Sequence record: LC519489.1
DNA length: 64,000 bases
Direction: 5' to 3' (one strand)
Source: Escherichia phage SP22
Shown here: positions 697 through 6,376 of the stretch, one piece after another
Position numbering within the stretch: the stretch's first letter is position 1
How the letters are laid out: the number at the start of each line of letters is the position of its first letter
Translations under genes and position numbers: made by a program
The notes under the pieces: model-generated
What the model saw: the letters and a program-made list of their open reading frames with translations, nothing else
Told to the model about the DNA's origin: nothing
Databases searched by the model: none

Positions 697-2112
697 ATGA
701 GCAAGTTATTTAAACATGCGCACCTTCATGCAGGTCGAACTGAAAATGGTGCTGTAAACCATACTTCATCAATGTCTGCTCTGGTAGACTTCTACAAAGC
801 CGCTGGCTCAAGCCGTAGCAATGTAGAAATCTTACCAGACCTGTTCTACAAAGCTTTGCGTGAGGATGTTGATGTTGCAGTTCGTATTTTGCTTCACATG
901 CGAGATGTACGAGAAGGTATGGGTGAGCGTAAAGCCTTCAGAACTGTTTTACTTCAAGCAATCGAAGATAAAGTTTTAGAGCCTACACAGGTTCTTCGTA
1001 TTATGGATAAGATTGCAGAACTTGGTCGTTTTGATGACTTCAAAATCTTCGTAGGTACTCGTTTTGAGACAGATGCCTTCAAACATTTAGAAGCAGCATT
1101 ACTAGACCCTGAAACAGCAGGTTTAGCAGCCAAGTGGTTACCACGAGTAAAACCACGACACAAACAGTTTGTAAAACGTTTCTGCAAGTTTGCTAACTTA
1201 AGTGAGAAAGAGTACCGCACACTGTTGTCTGCACTTTCTGATACGGTTGAGCAAAAAATCTCTGCTAATGAGTTCGGTAAGATTGACTACAGCAAGATTC
1301 CTTCACTCGCTGCTGCACGTTACCAAAAACTCTTTAACCGTAAAGATGGAGAACGCTACAAAGCTTACATTGAGTCCTTATCAAAAGGTGAGACTAAGAT
1401 TAACGCTGGTGCTGTTTACCCATACGATGTGATTAAATCTATCAAGTATGGTAATGCAGATGTTGCTAATGAGCAGTGGAAAGCACTACCAAACTGGATG
1501 GCAGAGGGTGAAAACATCTTGTGTATGACTGATGTCTCAAGCTCGATGTCTTGGGTAAATCTTGGTTCAATCACTGCTCTTGATATTGGTGTATCTCTTG
1601 CCTTGTATGTAGCAGAACGCAACACAGGATGCTTTAAGGACGAGTTAATGGTCTATTCAACAAACCCTCATTTCATTGAACTGAGTGGTGATTTGAAAAA
1701 CCGTCATCGTCAGGTGATGCGTCATGTTGAATATGGCTCAACTAACTTACAAGCAGCTTTTGACCGTATTCTTGAGACAGGTAAGAGAAACAACTTGACT
1801 CAGAAAGATATGCCAAGTAAGCTTATCATCTTCTCTGATATGGAGTTCAATCAGGTTGATGGTGCAAATGGTCGTACAAACTTTGAAGAAATTCGCAGTA
1901 AGTACAAAAAAGCTGGATATGAGATGCCACAACTGGTATTCTGGTACTTAGCAAACCGTAATGGTACTTGCGAAGTGTCTGTTAAGGATAACGGTGTAGC
2001 AATGGTATCAGGGTTCTCTCCAGCCACTTTAAAAGCTCTGCTTGGTGGTGAGAAGTTTGACCCAATCAGCGTAATGCTCAAAGCAGTAATGATTGACCGT
2101 TACATCTGGTAA
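697..2112 (+). CDS. vWA-domain protein with alpha-helical N-terminal region (DUF2828/TROVE-like)
   Basis: MIDAS-type DVSSSMS motif and LIIFSDMEF strand in C-terminal half; RDVREGMGER motif N-terminal; 471 aa. Confidence 0.5.
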   Translation: MSKLFKHAHLHAGRTENGAVNHTSSMSALVDFYKAAGSSRSNVEILPDLFYKALREDVDVAVRILLHMRDVREGMGERKAFRTVLLQAIEDKVLEPTQVLRIMDKIAELGRFDDFKIFVGTRFETDAFKHLEAALLDPETAGLAAKWLPRVKPRHKQFVKRFCKFANLSEKEYRTLLSALSDTVEQKISANEFGKIDYSKIPSLAAARYQKLFNRKDGERYKAYIESLSKGETKINAGAVYPYDVIKSIKYGNADVANEQWKALPNWMAEGENILCMTDVSSSMSWVNLGSITALDIGVSLALYVAERNTGCFKDELMVYSTNPHFIELSGDLKNRHRQVMRHVEYGSTNLQAAFDRILETGKRNNLTQKDMPSKLIIFSDMEFNQVDGANGRTNFEEIRSKYKKAGYEMPQLVFWYLANRNGTCEVSVKDNGVAMVSGFSPATLKALLGGEKFDPISVMLKAVMIDRYIW

Positions 2113-2130
2113 AAAGTTTTAAAAAGGGTA

Positions 2131-2159
2131 TTGACAATGTGTTTAATACCCTTTAATAT
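2131..2159 (+). promoter_or_regulatory. Sigma70-like promoter TTGACA-N17-TAATAT heading the tRNA array, embedded in hairpin AGGGTATT/AATACCCT (2124-2151)
   Basis: Hexamers and 17-nt spacing read directly; flanking 8-bp inverted repeat. Confidence 0.4.
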
Positions 2160-2382
2160 GTTCTACATAGAAACGAAATGAGAGCTTTTCTAAGATACTG
2201 AAAAATATTTTAAAAAAGTTCTTGACAACTACTAAAAAATAATGTTAAAGTGGTTACATAGAGTTTGAAAATGACAGTACTGACCGGAACATCGAAAGAT
2301 GGGTACTGCGCCGGGGTTTTACACCCTCCCAGCCTGAGAGCGGGATAACCAAAGGAAAGACCGAATTTATTAAAAAGTTTAT

Positions 2383-2459
2383 CTCTGTTTAGCTCAGCTT
2401 GGTAGAGCGTTCCGTTTGGGGCGGTAAGGCCGGAGGTTCAAGTCCTCCAACAGAGACCA
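2383..2459 (+). tRNA. tRNA-Pro(TGG)
   Basis: Acceptor ctctgtt/aacagag, D-arm AGCTCAGCTTGGTAGAGC, anticodon loop TTTGGGG, T-loop TTCAAGT, CCA encoded. Confidence 0.7.
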
Positions 2460-2466
2460 AATTAAT

Positions 2467-2544
2467 GTTCCAGTAGACAAAATGGTAAAGTCACCACTCT
2501 TTCAAAGTGGATATTTGAGGGTTCAAATCCCTTCTGGAACGCCA
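2467..2544 (+). tRNA. tRNA-Glu(TTC)
   Basis: Acceptor gttccag/ctggaac, anticodon stem ccact/agtgg, loop CTTTCAA, T-loop TTCAAAT, CCA encoded. Confidence 0.7.
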
Positions 2545-2635
2545 GTTTTGACAGAAGACCAATTACAGCAAACTTAATCTTATTCATCTGAAGGTAAATC
2601 GGACAAAGAAGAGATTTGGTTTGGTCATTAAGAAT

Positions 2636-2712
2636 TGCGGGTATAGAGAAAGGGCGTCTCACATGTCTCATTAGCATGGTATCGGCAGGTTCGACTCCTG
2701 CACCCGCCTCCA
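2636..2712 (+). tRNA. tRNA-Met(CAT) type, with U1-C72 mismatch or extra nucleotide before the D-stem
   Basis: Anticodon stem catgt/gcatg, loop CTCATTA, D-stem gaga/tctc, T-arm gcagg-TTCGACT-cctgc, CCA encoded; acceptor register ambiguous. Confidence 0.6.
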
Positions 2713-2789
2713 ATTTTGCAGAAGACCGTATTCAGCAACAAAATACTTTTTGCGGATAAAAGAAAAAACACGGTCTGGCAATGTATTAA

Positions 2790-2866
2790 GGTTAGGAAGC
2801 ACATAAGGTATGTGCGGTCGCCTGTTAAGCGAATGGCACAGGGTTCGAATCCCTGACTAACCGCCA
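2790..2866 (+). tRNA. tRNA-Asn(GTT)
   Basis: Acceptor ggttagg/actaacc, anticodon loop CTGTTAA, T-arm caggg-TTCGAAT-ccctg, CCA encoded. Confidence 0.7.
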
Positions 2867-2935
2867 AATTTAGGAGAGAAGCGATTGCTCACCGATTTGT
2901 AAGGTGCAAGTCCTTAGCCTGAATAGAAATTAAAT

Positions 2936-3023
2936 GTGTCGTTATCCCGTAGATGGTAGCGGTGGGGACTGTAAATCCCTTGTCATTGAGACTCGGTAGG
3001 TTCGACTCCTACACGGCACACCA
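2936..3023 (+). tRNA. tRNA-Tyr(GTA), type II (long variable arm)
   Basis: Acceptor gtgtcgt/acggcac, anticodon stem gggga/tccct, loop CTGTAAA, about 15-nt variable arm, T-loop TTCGACT, CCA encoded. Confidence 0.65.
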
Positions 3024-3029
3024 AATAAA

Positions 3030-3106
3030 GGTTATGTAGTTTAACTGGTTAAAATACTCCCCTGTCACGGGAGATGATGAGGGTTCAAATCCCTTCGTAA
3101 CCGCCA
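3030..3106 (+). tRNA. tRNA-Asp(GTC)
   Basis: Acceptor ggttatg/cgtaacc, D-stem gttt/aaat, anticodon stem ctccc/gggag, loop CTGTCAC, T-loop TTCAAAT, CCA encoded. Confidence 0.75.
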
Positions 3107-3318
3107 AATTATAATAAGTATTTCAAAATGATGTTTTGAGAGGGCTATTTAGCCCCTCCCTTAAAGAGTTCTTACGAGTATTCTTTAAAGGAGCAGAAGA
3201 CCAAATTCAGCAAGTACGTATGAAATTTTCAAGCCAATTTAATTTTGAAAAAATTTAAAACTTGGTCTGGCTCAACAAATTTACAGAAGACCGTTTACAG
3301 CAAACTTTAAACAATCTA

Positions 3319-3392
3319 TTTCTCCGGTAAAGAAAAGGCGAAGGTTCGATTCCTTCACTCGGCAGATGTCGAGTTGGTGTAATGGTAGCACT
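3319..3392 (+). tRNA. Circularly permuted tRNA-Thr(GGT)-like locus: 3' portion (anticodon arm, T-arm, acceptor 3' strand; 3319-3364) lies upstream of 5' portion (acceptor 5' strand, D-arm; 3368-3392)
   Basis: Anticodon arm tttct-CCGGTAA-agaaa, T-arm gaagg-TTCGATT-ccttc, 3' strand actcggc, linker, 5' strand gtcgagt (7/7 pairs incl. one G-U), D-arm gtgt-AATGGTA-gcac; no partner halves in the conventional order nearby. Confidence 0.35.
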
Positions 3393-3564
3393 TAAGATGA
3401 TAAACAACGGTCTGGTAATTATCTTTGTAGATAAGTTATTAAGCTTACCTGTGAGTATGCGACCACAAAGGGTGAAATGGTAAATTCTAGATTTAAACCC
3501 AACAATGCACATCGCTACAGACCTTAAGCAAGTCTGGGTAGCTTATCTACAAAGATAATTTAAT

Positions 3565-3640
3565 GGAAGTGTAGCAGAATGGTGATGCGGCAGACTTTTA
3601 ATCTGACAGGCGATGGGTTCGAATCCCTCCACTTCTACCA
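3565..3640 (+). tRNA. tRNA-Lys(TTT)
   Basis: Acceptor ggaagtg/cacttct, anticodon loop CTTTTAA, T-loop TTCGAAT, CCA encoded; T-stem has a bulge (gatggg/ccctc), shared with the Lys(CTT) paralogue. Confidence 0.65.
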
Positions 3641-3644
3641 ATAT

Positions 3645-3721
3645 GGTTCAGTCGCAGATAAGGTAATGCAGGGGTTTCATAAGCCCTATGAATGTGGGTT
3701 CGATTCCCATCTGAACCTCCA
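3645..3721 (+). tRNA. tRNA-Met(CAT) type (elongator Met or Ile2 not distinguishable)
   Basis: Acceptor ggttcag/ctgaacc, anticodon stem ggggt/gccct, loop TTCATAA, T-arm gtggg-TTCGATT-cccat, CCA encoded. Confidence 0.7.
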
Positions 3722-3722
3722 A

Positions 3723-3798
3723 GCTGGTATAGTTAAGAAGGTTATAACACTCCCCTGATAAGGGAACATCGGTGGTTCGATTCCACCTACCAGTACCA
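3723..3798 (+). tRNA. tRNA-Ile(GAT)
   Basis: Acceptor gctggta/taccagt, D-stem gtta/taac, anticodon loop CTGATAA, T-arm ggtgg-TTCGATT-ccacc, CCA encoded. Confidence 0.75.
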
Positions 3799-3813
3799 AT
3801 TTCAATAAAGTTG

Positions 3814-3842
3814 TTGACATTGAGATGTGACTACTTTATAGT
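3814..3842 (+). promoter_or_regulatory. Sigma70-like promoter TTGACA-N17-TATAGT inside the tRNA array
   Basis: Hexamers and spacing read directly; followed by about 290 nt with no tRNA or ORF. Confidence 0.5.
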
Positions 3843-4136
3843 AACTGAAAATGATTCAGCATATGTATAATTCAAACACCAATACATGAGCGTTAGACGT
3901 AACACAATGTGGGGAAATTTGTTGTACATATTCTGAATAGTTTTCGTTGCGTAGCGTCTATTTTGCAAATTTAAAATAAATGCAAACGACAATGTTTTTC
4001 TGGCAGTAGCTTGATAGGCTAAACACCAGTGAGGTCTTCCAATCCCTCATCAAAGAATTTGGCGTACTCGCCCACGGTATGATTAATAAGGTGGGCATCT
4101 TTAAGGGCTTTCTAAGAGAGTCTTTAAAGATAATTA

Positions 4137-4218
4137 CGGGGCGTATCTCAGCGGTCTTCTAAACCGCCGTTAACCGAGTAAGTGGAGTATGCGGGTTCGA
4201 GTCCTGCCGCCTCGACCA
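4137..4218 (+). tRNA. Atypical tRNA-like gene, anticodon TCT (Arg), no recognisable D-arm and a 23-nt extra region; possible pseudo-tRNA
   Basis: Acceptor cggggcg/cgcctcg, perfect hairpin gcggt-CTTCTAA-accgc, T-arm gcggg-TTCGAGT-cctgc, CCA encoded; only 7 nt between acceptor and anticodon stem. Confidence 0.35.
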
Positions 4219-4232
4219 ATTTTGGAGAAATC

Positions 4233-4580
4233 ATGAAAACTTGTATTAGGTGCAAACTTAGCAAGGATGAAAATGATTTCTACATGAAAGATGGTAAGAG
4301 AACTCATTCATACTGTAAAAAGTGTGTTAATGAGCAAACCATAGAAAGACAAAGAGCACTTAAACTTTCAGCTATTGAGTACAAAGGTGGGGTTTGTCAT
4401 GATTGTGGTAAAAGGTATCATCCAGCAGTGTATGACTTCCATCATTTGAATCCTTCAGAGAAAGATTTTAACATTGGTCATAGAAAAAGTCTGAAGTTCT
4501 CTCAAGAACTAAAAGATGAACTTGACAAATGTGTTTTGCTATGTTCAAATTGCCATAGGGTAAGACATGCAAAGTATTAG
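4233..4580 (+). CDS. HNH homing endonuclease
   Basis: HNH motifs (YDFHHLNPSEKDFNIGH ... LLCSNCHRVRH); start placed at ATG after GGAG; upstream extension in the ORF track overlaps the tRNA-like gene. Confidence 0.7.
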   Translation: MKTCIRCKLSKDENDFYMKDGKRTHSYCKKCVNEQTIERQRALKLSAIEYKGGVCHDCGKRYHPAVYDFHHLNPSEKDFNIGHRKSLKFSQELKDELDKCVLLCSNCHRVRHAKY

Positions 4581-4717
4581 TTAGCAGATTGCTTAGACGA
4601 CCTTATCGGGTCTCCGTGTAAGGAGGTGGTCTGTATCTCATGTTTTCCAGAACATGTAAATAATCTGAGAAGGGGCTTTACAGTGTTGCGAAAATACGGT
4701 AAGCTTCGAATTACAAT

Positions 4718-4901: not shown

Positions 4902-5057
4902 CCTAATAAGATTTATACCGTCCATGCTTGCTCGCATTTTCGGTTTATCCTCGTGTATTGGTTGTACACACTGATAAAGCACCTAGTAGGTGTCACGGAG
5001 AAGAGATAATATCAAGCTCTCCAAAGGTTCTAGTCACCGGATTAAACAAGACTATGC

Positions 5058-5171: not shown

Positions 5172-5624
5172 ATGGCACGTAGCAGTTTGACTAAAGATAT
5201 TCTTGAACCTTTAGTAAAGGATTCAGTATCATTCAGAGAAGTACTTATTAAGCTTGGGAGAAAACCAGCAGGTGGTTCTCAGTCACATCTAAAGCGTGTT
5301 ATAGAGAAGTTTGAAATAGACACTTCTCATTTCCTCGGACAAAAGGCTGGTAAGGTTAAAACTGTACCAAAAAGAAAGCCTGAAGAAATACTAATTCTGC
5401 GTGAATCTGGTGAAAGAGCTAGGTCTTCACAACTAAGAAGAGCTTTAATAGCCTCTGGTGTCGAATACAAATGCTCTAAATGTGGTCAGTTACCGTATTG
5501 GTTGGGTAACCCTCTAACTCTTGATGTTGACCACATTAACGAGAACTGGTTAGATGATAGAAAAGAGAATCTTCGGTTCTTGTGTCCAAATTGCCACAGT
5601 CAATTCTCAAGACATTTGATTTAA
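5172..5624 (+). CDS. HNH homing endonuclease
   Basis: HNH motif LDVDHINENWLDDRKENLRFLCPNCH; GGGAG RBS upstream. Confidence 0.7.
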   Translation: MARSSLTKDILEPLVKDSVSFREVLIKLGRKPAGGSQSHLKRVIEKFEIDTSHFLGQKAGKVKTVPKRKPEEILILRESGERARSSQLRRALIASGVEYKCSKCGQLPYWLGNPLTLDVDHINENWLDDRKENLRFLCPNCHSQFSRHLI

Positions 5625-5962: not shown

Positions 5963-6376
5963 ATGAAAATATGTAGTACTTGCAGAATACCAAAAGATGA
6001 AAGCTTATTCCATAAGAATAAGAACAAGAAAGATGGTCTTCAAAGTCAATGCAAAGACTGTGCAAGACTTCGTGATGCAAAGAGTTATCAAGCAAATGAT
6101 AAAAGGAAAGAGGCTATCAAAAGCACTCGTAACTTCAAGAGGGAGTATAATAAAACTCTAGCTAGAAGGTACAAAGCTTTATGCAAATGTCATATATGTG
6201 GTGAGAAAGAACCAGCTGCACTGGATTTACACCATACAGACCCTTCCCAGAAAGATTTGAATCCTGCATCACTTTATTCATACTCCACAAAAAGATTAAA
6301 AGATGAAATCAGAAAGTGTATCGTCTTGTGTGCTAACTGTCACAGAAAAGTACACGCTGGTATCATACAAGTTTAA
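5963..6376 (+). CDS. HNH homing endonuclease
   Basis: HNH motifs LDLHHTDPSQKDLNPA ... VLCANCHRKVH; Cys-rich N-terminus. Confidence 0.7.
   Translation: MKICSTCRIPKDESLFHKNKNKKDGLQSQCKDCARLRDAKSYQANDKRKEAIKSTRNFKREYNKTLARRYKALCKCHICGEKEPAALDLHHTDPSQKDLNPASLYSYSTKRLKDEIRKCIVLCANCHRKVHAGIIQV

What the first reader, a model, noticed from the sequence alone, without database searches (positions are those of the whole stretch)
3319..3392. Circularly permuted tRNA-Thr(GGT)-like locus
A complete tRNA 3' portion (anticodon arm tttct-CCGGTAA-agaaa, variable region, T-arm gaagg-TTCGATT-ccttc, acceptor 3' strand actcggc) is followed after a short linker by a matching 5' portion (acceptor strand gtcgagt, 7/7 pairs, and D-arm gtgt-AATGGTA-gcac). 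No partner halves exist in the conventional order nearby. This is the arrangement of permuted tRNA genes known from a few eukaryotic algae; in a phage it is either a novel split/permuted tRNA or the remnant of a tandem tRNA duplication with reciprocal deletions.
Basis: seen in the sequence. Interest (0 to 1): 0.75.

Follow-up and report, generated by a model that had tools for sequence, protein, structure and literature searches.

The report
Phage Y-RNA-like permuted tRNA mimic
The "permuted tRNA" is real, but it is most likely the tRNA-shaped half of a small non-coding RNA that partners with the Ro60-like protein encoded just upstream, giving a candidate RNA partner for a widespread phage protein already linked to countering a bacterial defence.

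Summary
At 3319-3391 an anticodon-like hairpin, T arm and acceptor 3' strand are followed, after a 4-nt loop, by the matching acceptor 5' strand and D arm. The window is a Felixounavirus tRNA cluster.

It is not a decayed duplication. Relatives keep all five helices through compensatory changes: on a model-fitted alignment, 96.7% of cells pair and 25 of 28 pairs change on both sides. It is probably not a decoding tRNA either, because orthologues carry different "anticodons" (GGU, GCU, UCU, AUC, GUU). The window has C33, and close relatives have a 6-nt loop.

The tRNA-like body sits inside a helix (3288-3294 with 3407-3413) followed by a conserved ACAGCAA motif. This is the layout of YrlA-type bacterial Y RNAs. 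The gene 1.2 kb upstream (697-2112, DUF2828+DUF7788) models as a Ro60 fold.

The same helix-plus-(A/U)CAGCAA modules flank homologues of this gene, on its strand, in very different phages. Some carry the tRNA-like insert, including a Mycobacterium phage (81.6 bits). The window holds four such modules and a fifth variant.

Verdict: a new variant of the YrlA-type Y RNA, with a divergent Ro60-like partner and a different motif. RNA-protein binding and expression are inferred, not shown.

The parts
697..2112 (+). Gene for a 471-aa Ro60-like protein (helical-repeat domain plus von Willebrand A domain). It is the orthologue of Bas63 gp130.
   Evidence: Pfam hits DUF2828 and DUF7788. The AlphaFold2 model has pLDDT 88.4 and pTM 0.87. 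The ten best Foldseek PDB hits are all Ro60/TROVE proteins, full length, E about 1e-7, TM 0.47-0.61. Its position matches bas63_0130.
2552..2625 (+). Module M1: helix plus ACAGCAA motif, no tRNA-like insert, in the tRNA-Glu/tRNA-Met spacer.
   Evidence: R1 scores 28.3 bits and R2 24.9 bits. The sequence is CAGAAGACCAAUUACAGCAA...UUGGUUUGG.
2719..2779 (+). Module M2: helix AGACCGU/ACGGUCU plus UCAGCAA, no insert, in the tRNA-Met/tRNA-Asn spacer.
   Evidence: R1 scores 39.5 bits, E 1.5e-5. R2 scores 39.4 bits.
3194..3271 (+). Module M3: helix AGACCAA (3198-3204) with UUGGUCU (3262-3268), motif UCAGCAA (3207-3213), small internal hairpin.
   Evidence: Sequence and fold are. Homologous hits occur in relatives: L020 5369-5443 at 35 bits, and L089 6196-6272 at 29.9 bits and 27.6 bits. 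The module is conserved in alignment A1. In the window itself neither covariance model reported M3, so it rests on sequence, fold and those homologues.
3284..3416 (+). Module M4: the full Y-RNA-like unit that contains the finding.
   Evidence: R1 scores 132.9 bits and R2 118 bits. The minimum-free-energy fold gives the same five helices.
3288..3294 (+). 5' strand of the enclosing helix (AGACCGU). It pairs with 3407-3413 (ACGGUCU), and an eighth pair 3295-3406 is possible.
   Evidence: 6 of 7 pairs change on both sides across 21 sequences. The G-C second pair is invariant.
3297..3303 (+). Conserved single-stranded motif ACAGCAA, proposed as the protein-recognition site.
   Evidence: The motif is enriched on the gene's strand next to DUF2828 genes: 1.18 per kb against 0.13-0.18 per kb, in 39 of 65 loci, Poisson P 6e-34. 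It is conserved in alignment A6.
3319..3335 (+). Anticodon-arm-like hairpin (the 'V' stem-loop in YrlA terms), loop CCGGUAA.
   Evidence: All 5 pairs change on both sides, and 86% of cells are paired. The loop triplet differs between orthologues.
3340..3356 (+). T arm: GAAGG-UUCGAUU-CCUUC.
   Evidence: 100% of cells are paired and 4 of 5 pairs change on both sides.
3357..3374 (+). Acceptor-like hairpin: ACUCGGC, loop AGAU, GUCGAGU.
   Evidence: All 7 pairs change on both sides. Sf13 has GGCGUGU/ACACGUU and Mordin GAAGGGU/ACCCUUC.
3377..3391 (+). D arm: GUGU-AAUGGUA-GCAC, preceded by U8 and G9 (3375-3376).
   Evidence: 95.7% of cells are paired and 3 of 4 pairs change on both sides.
3407..3413 (+). 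3' strand of the enclosing helix (ACGGUCU), followed by the conserved GG.
   Evidence: Same evidence as for 3288-3294. The 3' flank CUG is near-invariant in alignment A6.
3416..3562 (+). A further structured RNA: a long outer stem of about 24 bp around a branched core. An inner hairpin CAGACC-UUAAGCAA-GUCUGG (3518-3537) looks like a minimal version of the module.
   Evidence: The fold of the whole spacer gives z = -3.6. The outer stem shows compensatory changes in NBSal004, Sf13 and Mordin. The inner hairpin covaries in L089 (CAGUCC...GACUGG).

Best explanation
Window 3284-3416 encodes a Y-RNA-like non-coding RNA of the YrlA type, made of two modules.

Module (a) is a helix formed by the two ends (AGACCGU with ACGGUCU). 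It has near-invariant AAG and CUG flanks and a single-stranded ACAGCAA just 3' of the 5' strand. I propose that this is the binding site for the Ro60-like protein encoded at 697-2112.

Module (b) is a complete tRNA-shaped domain in permuted order: anticodon-like hairpin, T arm, closed acceptor hairpin, D arm. I propose that it presents a tRNA elbow and body to tRNA-binding factors.

The RNA would be made as part of the tRNA-cluster transcript and released by the enzymes that process the neighbouring tRNAs. It is one of four paralogous helix-plus-CAGCAA modules in the cluster (M1-M4), with a fifth variant. Only M4 carries the tRNA mimic.

By analogy with Ro60/Y RNA particles, the RNA would gate the protein or tether it to an effector or substrate related to tRNA. 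This would serve phage RNA quality control, RNA repair or counter-defence.

Shown here: the structure, its conservation, and its association with the gene family. Inferred: binding to the protein, expression and processing, and the biological role.
For: Structure:
- The minimum-free-energy fold gives the five helices.
- On an 11-sequence model-fitted alignment, 97.3% of cells pair and 24 of 28 pairs change on both sides. The covariation score is 0.745 against 0.227 shuffled (0 of 500 shuffles reach it) and 0.09-0.18 for slid partners.
- On 21 sequences the figures are 96.7%, 25 of 28, and 0.593 against 0.154, with slid partners at most 0.10.
- All six lineages tested become ARAGORN tRNAs when un-permuted in silico.

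Partner protein:
- The upstream gene models confidently, and its ten best PDB matches are all Ro60/TROVE proteins.
- Its Bas63 orthologue gp130 was independently reported as Ro60-like and as a counter to the Ppl defence (preprint 10.1101/2024.10.10.617714).

Association:
- All 83 R2 hits with E <= 0.05 in 560 kb, both strands searched, lie on the gene's strand.
- Full-length elements lie directly beside the gene in phages whose protein is only 33-46% identical. These are L079 4575-4708, L036 4387-4511, L029 2860-2986 and L041, and Mycobacterium phage BobsGarage 4505-4633 (81.6 bits, about 100 nt after its annotated 'Ro-like RNA binding protein', no tRNA genes annotated in the 7.4-kb stretch fetched).
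- The (A/U)CAGCAA motif is about 7-fold enriched next to the gene, on its strand only.

Layout: it matches published YrlA, which has a T stem-loop, then an acceptor-like stem-loop, then a D stem-loop, inside a helix that holds the Ro60 site (PMC4201824; 10.1101/312249).
Against: - No expression, processing or binding data exist for this RNA.
- The published YrlA 5'-strand motif GNCGAAN0-1G is absent, and Rfam reports no family here beyond a weak tRNA hit.
- The protein is related to Ro60 only by predicted fold. It has no Pfam TROVE hit, and sequence and profile searches of the PDB find no Ro60.
- Bas63 gp130 alone, expressed from a plasmid or from T7, restored plaquing on a Ppl strain. That activity therefore does not need these phage RNAs.
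- Natural isolates lack part or all of M4 (SP116, ESCO49, L089), so it is dispensable at least in some settings.
- In Felix-like phages the element lies 1.2 kb from the gene, inside a tRNA cluster on the same strand. Part of the strand bias is therefore expected from the cluster itself.
- The covariation counts were made on alignments fitted to the model, which leans them towards the structure.
Confidence: 0.72

Rival explanations
1. A selected tRNA mimic or processing signal that works without the Ro60-like protein. It could be a punctuation element for RNase P or RNase E in the polycistronic tRNA precursor. It could also be a free-standing decoy for host tRNA-binding or tRNA-cleaving factors.
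For: It sits inside a tRNA cluster. The 7-bp acceptor stem stacked on the T arm is the classic minimal RNase P substrate, and 6 of 16 acceptor loops begin NCCA. gp130 counters Ppl without these RNAs.
Against: The same element with the same ACAGCAA helix lies immediately beside the Ro-like gene where no tRNA genes are annotated nearby (BobsGarage). It also lies right after the gene in L079 and L036. The helix-plus-motif module without any tRNA-like part is the commonest neighbour of the gene, which a pure tRNA-processing role does not explain.
Confidence: 0.13
2. A true permuted or split tRNA gene. After cleavage in the acceptor loop and CCA addition, the two pieces would form an aminoacylatable tRNA-Thr(GGU) that decodes ACC/ACU.
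For: All tRNA parts are present, and the un-permuted sequence is called tRNA-Thr(GGU). The phage otherwise has only tRNA-Thr(UGU). Mycobacterium smegmatis YrlA, with a 7-bp acceptor stem, is cut by RNase P and receives CCA (PMC4201824). Some relatives encode NCCA in the loop.
Against: - The window has C33, and VSe102 and SP116 have a 6-nt loop.
- Syntenic orthologues have GCU (without the long variable arm of a tRNA-Ser) or UCU. More distant ones have AUC or GUU.
- The Mordin hairpin is degenerate.
- The anticodon-like stem and D arm are joined only through long linkers and an extra conserved helix.
- The acceptor sequence is not conserved.
Confidence: 0.05
3. A non-functional remnant of two tandem tRNA genes that suffered reciprocal deletions, that is, a pseudogene.
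For: Some GenBank records label it 'tRNA-OTHER' or 'putative tRNA pseudogene'. The junction looks like a tRNA-tRNA boundary, and some relatives keep NCCA. Some isolates have lost it.
Against: Every helix is kept by compensatory substitutions across lineages whose partner protein is only 33-57% identical. The element recurs next to the same gene family in unrelated phage groups. No relative examined carries an intact conventional tRNA at this site.
Confidence: 0.02

Closest known systems
YrlA-type bacterial Y RNAs (Salmonella Typhimurium, Mycobacterium smegmatis, some mycobacteriophages; Chen et al. 2014, PMC4201824; Wang et al. 2018, bioRxiv 10.1101/312249)
   Same: Both are encoded on the same strand near a Ro60-type gene. 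Both have a helix formed by the 5' and 3' ends with a conserved motif on the 5' side. In both, a tRNA-like domain carries the T arm 5' of the D arm with a closed acceptor-like hairpin between them, described as 'circularly permuted tRNAs'. Like M. smegmatis YrlA, this element has a 7-bp acceptor stem. Paralogues without the tRNA-like part exist, as with YrlB.
   Different: The partner protein is DUF2828/DUF7788, and its relation to Ro60 shows only in the fold. The motif is (A/U)CAGCAA rather than GNCGAAN0-1G. The hairpin before the T arm has full anticodon-arm geometry (5 bp, 7-nt loop, 4-nt variable region). The enclosing helix is separated from the tRNA body by 14-15-nt linkers instead of continuing as the anticodon stem. 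The element is embedded in a phage tRNA cluster with at least four paralogous modules. No Rfam family matched, though I did not verify that Rfam holds a YrlA model.
Yrl1/Yrl2 of Thermus phage phiLo with phiRo60 (PMC12135203)
   Same: Both are phage-encoded Ro60-fold proteins with small stem-bulge RNAs encoded beside the gene. phiRo60 (PDB 9KOP, 9L5Y) is the top structural match of the window's protein.
   Different: The phiLo RNAs carry the CGAA motif, and a search of that paper found no mention of a tRNA-like domain or of YrlA. In phiLo, binding and a complex with PNPase were shown experimentally. Nothing has been shown here.
Circularly permuted tRNA genes of Cyanidioschyzon merolae and other algae (from my own knowledge; also alluded to in 10.1101/312249)
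   Same: The 3' half lies upstream of the 5' half, joined by a short linker across the acceptor stem.
   Different: The algal genes are processed through a circular intermediate into ordinary decoding tRNAs with a conserved anticodon. Here the anticodon-like triplet is not conserved and the ends run into an extra conserved helix.
tRNA-like domain of tmRNA, including two-piece (permuted) tmRNA
   Same: Both are tRNA mimics with a T arm and acceptor stem. Permuted tmRNA genes also place the acceptor 3' strand upstream of the 5' strand.
   Different: tmRNA has no D stem or anticodon arm, carries a G3-U70 alanine identity pair and a tag reading frame, and works with SmpB. None of these applies to 3284-3416. 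A separate tmRNA-like stretch lies at 3847-4218.

Membership tests
YrlA-type Y RNA | tRNA-like domain ordered T stem-loop, acceptor-like stem-loop, D stem-loop | tested here: met
   The sequence shows it, the fold agrees, and covariation supports it.
YrlA-type Y RNA | Conserved elbow nucleotides: T loop UUCRANY, D loop with A14/G18/G19, and U before the D stem | tested here: met
   The window has UUCGAUU, AAUGGUA and U3375. These are conserved in most of the tRNA-like rows of A6, with L079 (UGCAAAU, AAUAGAA) as the exception. The Levitt 15-48 pair is not clearly kept in the window, which has A15 with C48.
YrlA-type Y RNA | 5' and 3' ends pair to form the helix that carries the Ro60 site | tested here: met
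   The helix is 3288-3294 with 3407-3413. 98% of cells are paired and 6 of 7 pairs change on both sides.
YrlA-type Y RNA | GNCGAAN0-1G motif on the 5' strand | tested here: not met
   The 5' strand carries ACAGCAA instead. A GGCGAAG string at 3337-3343 lies at the junction before the T stem and is not conserved: VSe102 has GGAGAAG and REP5 has GGUGAAG.
YrlA-type Y RNA | Encoded within about 4 kb of a Ro60 (TROVE) gene, on the same strand | tested here: inconclusive
   The element is on the same strand, 1.17 kb downstream of 697-2112. That protein matches Ro60 by predicted fold but not Pfam TROVE and not by PDB sequence or profile search.
YrlA-type Y RNA | Bound by the Ro60 protein in cells, and modified by TruB and DusA | not testable with these tools
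   This needs immunoprecipitation and modification mapping.
Canonical decoding tRNA | Conventional cloverleaf recognised by tRNA finders | tested here: not met
   ARAGORN finds none. Rfam tRNA scores 24.7 bits, below the 29-bit threshold. A tRNA is called only after artificial un-permuting.
Canonical decoding tRNA | 7-nt anticodon loop with U33, and an anticodon conserved among orthologues | tested here: not met
   The window has C33. VSe102 and SP116 have a 6-nt loop. Orthologues carry GGU, GCU, UCU, AUC or GUU.
Permuted tRNA gene (algal type) | 3' half upstream of the 5' half, joined across the acceptor stem | tested here: met
   The sequence shows it and un-permuting gives a tRNA call.
Permuted tRNA gene (algal type) | Processing through a circular intermediate to a contiguous, aminoacylated tRNA | not testable with these tools
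   This needs RNA-end mapping. The extra helix, linkers and variable anticodon argue against it.
Ro60/TROVE protein (for the partner gene) | Helical-repeat ring followed by a von Willebrand A domain | tested here: met
   The AF2 model has helices from about residue 28 to 263, then an alpha/beta domain from 274 to 450. The ten best Foldseek hits are all Ro60/TROVE proteins.
Ro60/TROVE protein (for the partner gene) | Sequence-level match to the TROVE family | tested here: not met
   Pfam gives only DUF2828 and DUF7788. phmmer and a 40-sequence profile find no Ro60 chain in the PDB.

The most novel reading that the evidence does not exclude
DUF2828 Ro-like proteins and helix-plus-(A/U)CAGCAA RNAs may form a large phage ribonucleoprotein family that I did not find described. 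The protein is encoded in 709 of the 50,697 phage records searched. In this reading the permuted tRNA module is an active tRNA decoy or adaptor. Each lineage would imitate a different tRNA, anticodon loop included (Thr, Ser, Arg, Asp, Asn). In lineages that encode NCCA in the acceptor loop, RNase P would cut the RNA into a two-piece, CCA-ended mimic. The particle would then intercept or sense host nucleases or defence systems that attack tRNAs, or channel damaged tRNAs to repair.
Probability: 0.15. Interest if true: 0.85.

Novelty: new variant of a known kind. Interest (0 to 1): 0.64.

Why it matters
- **A concrete RNA partner.** A 2024 preprint showed that the Bas63 orthologue of the upstream gene is Ro60-like and counters the Ppl defence. 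It guessed that "some tRNA genes" might be its Y RNAs. This analysis points instead to specific, unannotated RNAs in the tRNA spacers, with a defined helix-plus-ACAGCAA signature. That makes binding and function directly testable.
- **A wider Y RNA/Ro60 paradigm.** The same pattern appears next to a divergent protein family spread across phages of Gram-negative, Gram-positive and actinobacterial hosts. It uses a different recognition motif.
- **Support for the dimeric-tRNA origin of Y RNAs.** The elements show retained NCCA at the junction and complete tRNA bodies, as that origin model predicts.
- **Annotation fixes.** These stretches are currently labelled as tRNA pseudogenes, as a 131-nt "tRNA-Thr", or as small reverse-strand ORFs.

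Tried and rejected
- ARAGORN in standard, intron (-i) and tmRNA (-m) modes found nothing in 3107-3564 or 3701-4400. I could not reproduce the 131-nt tRNA-Thr annotated in phage REP5.
- Rfam scans at gathering and permissive thresholds, on the window and on 21 related loci, gave no family for these RNAs.
- Sequence (phmmer) and profile searches of the PDB with the protein found no Ro60. Only the fold search did.
- The supplementary tables of Chen et al. 2014, which list the 22 phages with YrlA, are not held. The 2020 Annual Review (PMC10870794) is not held either. I therefore could not check whether any DUF2828-type phage was already listed.
- My loose pattern scan for T arm/hairpin/D arm was too noisy to use. 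tRNA dimers (L051, L054, Campylobacter phage) appear as false positives both in that scan and in the covariance models.
- The apparent insertion in phage S19cd was an artefact of how BLAST pieces were joined.
- The promoter and terminator scan of 2100-4300 gave no more sites than shuffled sequence and none within 3107-3564 on the + strand. The transcription unit is therefore undefined.

Full report
**Context.** The window is a FelixO1-like phage (Felixounavirus, Ounavirinae). The region around the finding is 95-99% identical to about 200 such genomes. ARAGORN finds 25 tRNA genes between 2383 and 8722, all on the + strand. The finding lies in the 458-nt gap between tRNA-Asp (3030-3106) and tRNA-Lys (3565-3640).

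**Observation.** The sequence is as described. It reads: a 5-bp hairpin with loop CCGGUAA (3319-3335), AGGC, a T arm (3340-3356), ACUCGGC (3357-3363), loop AGAU, GUCGAGU (3368-3374), UG, and a D arm (3377-3391). No tRNA finder calls a gene here. Rfam's tRNA model reaches only 24.7 bits, below its 29-bit threshold, by forcing non-pairing upstream bases into an acceptor stem. If the halves are joined in the conventional order, ARAGORN calls tRNA-Thr(GGU) at default settings.

**It is under selection, not a remnant.**
- Aligning the spacer with Mooglevirus relatives shows the acceptor hairpin rewritten with full compensation. The window has GUCGAGU/ACUCGGC, Sf13 has GGCGUGU/ACACGUU, and Mordin has GAAGGGU/ACCCUUC.
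- Syntenic loci whose upstream protein is only 54-57% identical keep the element after tRNA-Asp with different T, acceptor, anticodon-like and enclosing helices. These are L090 6953-7085 and L092 6700-6826.
- I built a covariance model from seven Ounavirinae sequences (R1). It found full-length matches in much more distant phages.
- On that 11-sequence alignment, 97.3% of cells pair and 24 of 28 pairs change on both sides. The covariation score is 0.745, against 0.227 for shuffles (0 of 500 reach it) and 0.09-0.18 for slid partners.
- With a second model (R2) and 21 sequences, the figures are 96.7%, 25 of 28, and 0.593 against 0.154.
- These alignments are fitted to the model, which favours the structure. 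However, the compensatory changes are also plain in the unfitted MAFFT alignments.

**It is probably not a decoding tRNA.**
- The window has C at position 33.
- The close relatives VSe102 and SP116 have a 6-nt loop.
- Mordin's hairpin is degenerate.
- Orthologues un-permute to "Thr GGU", "Ser GCU" (without a long variable arm), "Arg UCU", "Asp AUC" and "Asn GUU".
- The D arm and the anticodon-like stem are not free ends. They continue through 14- and 15-nt linkers into a helix, 3288-3294 with 3407-3413, which itself covaries.

**What encloses it.** The minimum-free-energy fold of 3283-3420 is: enclosing helix, hairpin, T arm, acceptor hairpin, D arm. This is the published layout of YrlA Y RNAs. 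In these, a helix made by the two ends carries the Ro60 site, and the tRNA-like domain has the T stem-loop 5' of the D stem-loop with a closed acceptor-like stem-loop between (PMC4201824). [quoted passage not shown] It also cites a model in which they arose from dimeric tRNA transcripts (10.1101/312249).

**The neighbouring gene.**
- ORF 697-2112 (471 aa) hits Pfam DUF2828 and DUF7788.
- An AlphaFold2 model built on 40 homologues is confident, with pLDDT 88.4 and pTM 0.87. It shows a helical-repeat domain followed by an alpha/beta domain.
- Its ten best Foldseek matches in the PDB are all Ro60/TROVE proteins over their full length: Thermus phage phiLo Ro60, Deinococcus Rsr, and Xenopus and human Ro60. 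E-values are about 1e-7 and TM scores 0.47-0.61. Isolated von Willebrand A domains come next.
- Sequence and profile searches do not detect this relationship.

**A recurrent RNA signature next to this gene family.**
- Homologues of the protein are encoded in 709 phage records. They include Vibrio, Aeromonas, Campylobacter, Listeria, Staphylococcus, Enterococcus, Bacillus and Mycobacterium phages. In the mycobacteriophages the gene is annotated "Ro-like RNA binding protein".
- In 65 non-Ounavirinae viral contigs, the heptamer (A/U)CAGCAA occurs at 1.18 per kb on the gene's strand within 350 nt upstream or 600 nt downstream of the gene. This compares with 0.13 per kb on the other strand and 0.17-0.18 per kb elsewhere. 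It is present in 39 of 65 loci (Poisson P about 6e-34).
- The motif sits just 3' of the 5' strand of a 6-9-bp helix whose 3' strand is followed by UG or GG. There are often two such modules in tandem.
- All 83 R2 matches with E <= 0.05 in 560 kb lie on the gene's strand.
- A subset carries the tRNA-like insert right beside the gene: L079 4575-4708 (105.6 bits), L036 4387-4511, L029 2860-2986, L041 and L047.
- Most tellingly, Mycobacterium phage BobsGarage carries it at 4505-4633 (81.6 bits). This lies in the unannotated gap after its Ro-like gene, with no tRNA genes annotated in the 7.4-kb stretch fetched. It is conserved in 42 mycobacteriophages.
- In the alignment, the helix base (A-U, then an invariant G-C) and the flanks AAG...CUG are nearly constant. 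This suits a sequence-specific protein site.
- Rfam has no family that matches any of these RNAs.

**In the window.** The signature occurs four times with near-identical ends (CAGAAGACC ... GGUCUGG). These are M1 2552-2625, M2 2719-2779, M3 3194-3271 and M4 3284-3416. A fifth, minimal version (CAGACC-UUAAGCAA-GUCUGG, 3518-3537) lies inside a larger structured RNA at 3416-3562, whose stems also covary. Only M4 carries the tRNA mimic. The others resemble YrlB-type partners.

**Mechanism proposed.**
- M4 is a bipartite RNA. The helix-plus-ACAGCAA end binds the Ro60-like protein, and the tRNA-shaped end engages tRNA-binding factors. This follows the Y RNA precedent of gating Ro60 or tethering it to an effector.
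- Six of 16 acceptor loops begin with NCCA directly after the 3' strand: Mordin, L090, two in L041, a second element in L079, and a second in L092 (binomial P about 1e-7).
- This fits an origin from tandem tRNA genes. Together with the 7-bp acceptor stem, it makes RNase P cleavage and a CCA end plausible in those lineages, as shown for M. smegmatis YrlA. For the window's 4-nt AGAU loop, cleavage is uncertain.
- The setting is a tRNA cluster here. In a Listeria phage the homologous gene lies in the same 7.5-kb stretch as a gene annotated "tRNA splicing ligase" (RtcB-like), as well as tRNA genes and a near-threshold ROOL RNA match. This points to tRNA damage, repair or counter-defence as the arena.
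- All of this is inference. Binding, expression and role are untested.

**Caveats.**
- The published YrlA motif GNCGAAN0-1G is not present.
- The protein is Ro60-like by fold only.
- gp130 counters Ppl without these RNAs.
- SP116 has lost the acceptor and D half through a T-arm to T-arm deletion with tRNA-Lys. ESCO49 lacks M3-M4, and L089 lacks M4. The tRNA-like module is therefore accessory.
- I could not see the supplementary phage list of Chen et al. 2014. Some DUF2828-type elements may already have been catalogued there.

**Verdict.** The finding is real and selected. Its best reading is a YrlA-like, circularly permuted tRNA mimic belonging to a Y-RNA-like partner of a divergent phage Ro60. 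That makes it a new variant of a known kind, not a novel split tRNA and not a deletion scar.

Noticed in passing
window 3847-4218 (+): A possible divergent tmRNA-like gene. Rfam gives sub-threshold hits to tmRNA_permuted (3847-4014, 22.2 bits) and tmRNA (4137-4218, 22.1 bits, E 4.6e-7). The second hit shows an acceptor stem, T arm and encoded ACCA. A tag-like frame at 3982-4014 reads GCA AAC GAC AAU GUU UUU CUG GCA GUA GCU UGA UAG, or ANDNVFLAVA** (compare E. coli ANDENYALAA). The frame is conserved in the Ounavirinae loci whose stored sequence extends that far, including L089, with synonymous and stop-to-stop changes and one Val-to-Ala change (L018). ARAGORN calls nothing here.
   Followed up: partly
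L041 4895-5015 and 5025-5137: Two conventional-order tRNA-like genes (Rfam tRNA 56.9 and 40.9 bits) in which a hairpin of about 50 nt carrying UUCAGCA replaces the anticodon arm. This is the mirror image of the permuted design, with the acceptor open and CCA encoded and the motif helix closed. A permuted copy follows them.
   Followed up: partly
L079 5328-5428: A helix-plus-UUCAGCAA module encloses a conventional-order tRNA body that lacks an acceptor stem (Rfam tRNA positions 5-66, 55.7 bits). It is a third way of combining the module with a tRNA shape.
   Followed up: no
L095 1428-1979 (Listeria phage AG20): A ROOL RNA match just under threshold (90.1 against 99.1 bits). It lies about 1 kb upstream of the Ro-like gene. 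In the same 7.5-kb stretch are tRNA genes, short ACAGCAA modules at 2707-2887 and a gene annotated 'tRNA splicing ligase', RtcB-like.
   Followed up: no
window 3255-3512 (-) and 3281-3391 (-); Bas63 bas63_0137/0138; VSe102 vse102_041: Small reverse-strand ORFs annotated as hypothetical proteins in relatives overlap the structured RNAs. One- to four-base indels among close relatives would shift their frames, so they are probably spurious.
   Followed up: partly
window 3137-3193 (+): Two conserved hairpins, GAGAGGGCU-AUUU-AGCCCCUC and CCUUAAAGA...UCUUUAAAGG, directly precede M3. They are kept with changes in L089. Their role is unknown. One relative annotates a promoter in this stretch.
   Followed up: no
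L007 (SP116) 1149-1294; L006 (ESCO49); L089 6135-6421: Natural deletion variants. SP116 fuses the element's T arm to the T arm of tRNA-Lys, losing the acceptor and D half, the 3416-3562 RNA and most of tRNA-Lys. ESCO49 lacks tRNA-Asp through the D arm. L089 keeps M3 and the long-stem RNA but has no M4.
   Followed up: partly
window 4182-4580, 5172-5624, 5963-6376 (+): Three small Cys/His-rich ORFs are interspersed among the tRNAs. Two give sub-threshold Pfam HNH hits (21.0 and 17.0 bits against a 21.4-bit cut-off). They are probably homing-endonuclease-like genes that help shuffle the tRNA region.
   Followed up: partly
L018 (phiSUSP1) 4911-4974; L002/L003 606-672: These relatives carry simple CAGAAGACCGUUUACAGCAA...ACGGUCUGG modules in a tRNA spacer upstream of the Asp-Lys gap. 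The 5' and 3' ends match M4, which suggests modules are duplicated and exchanged within the cluster.
   Followed up: no
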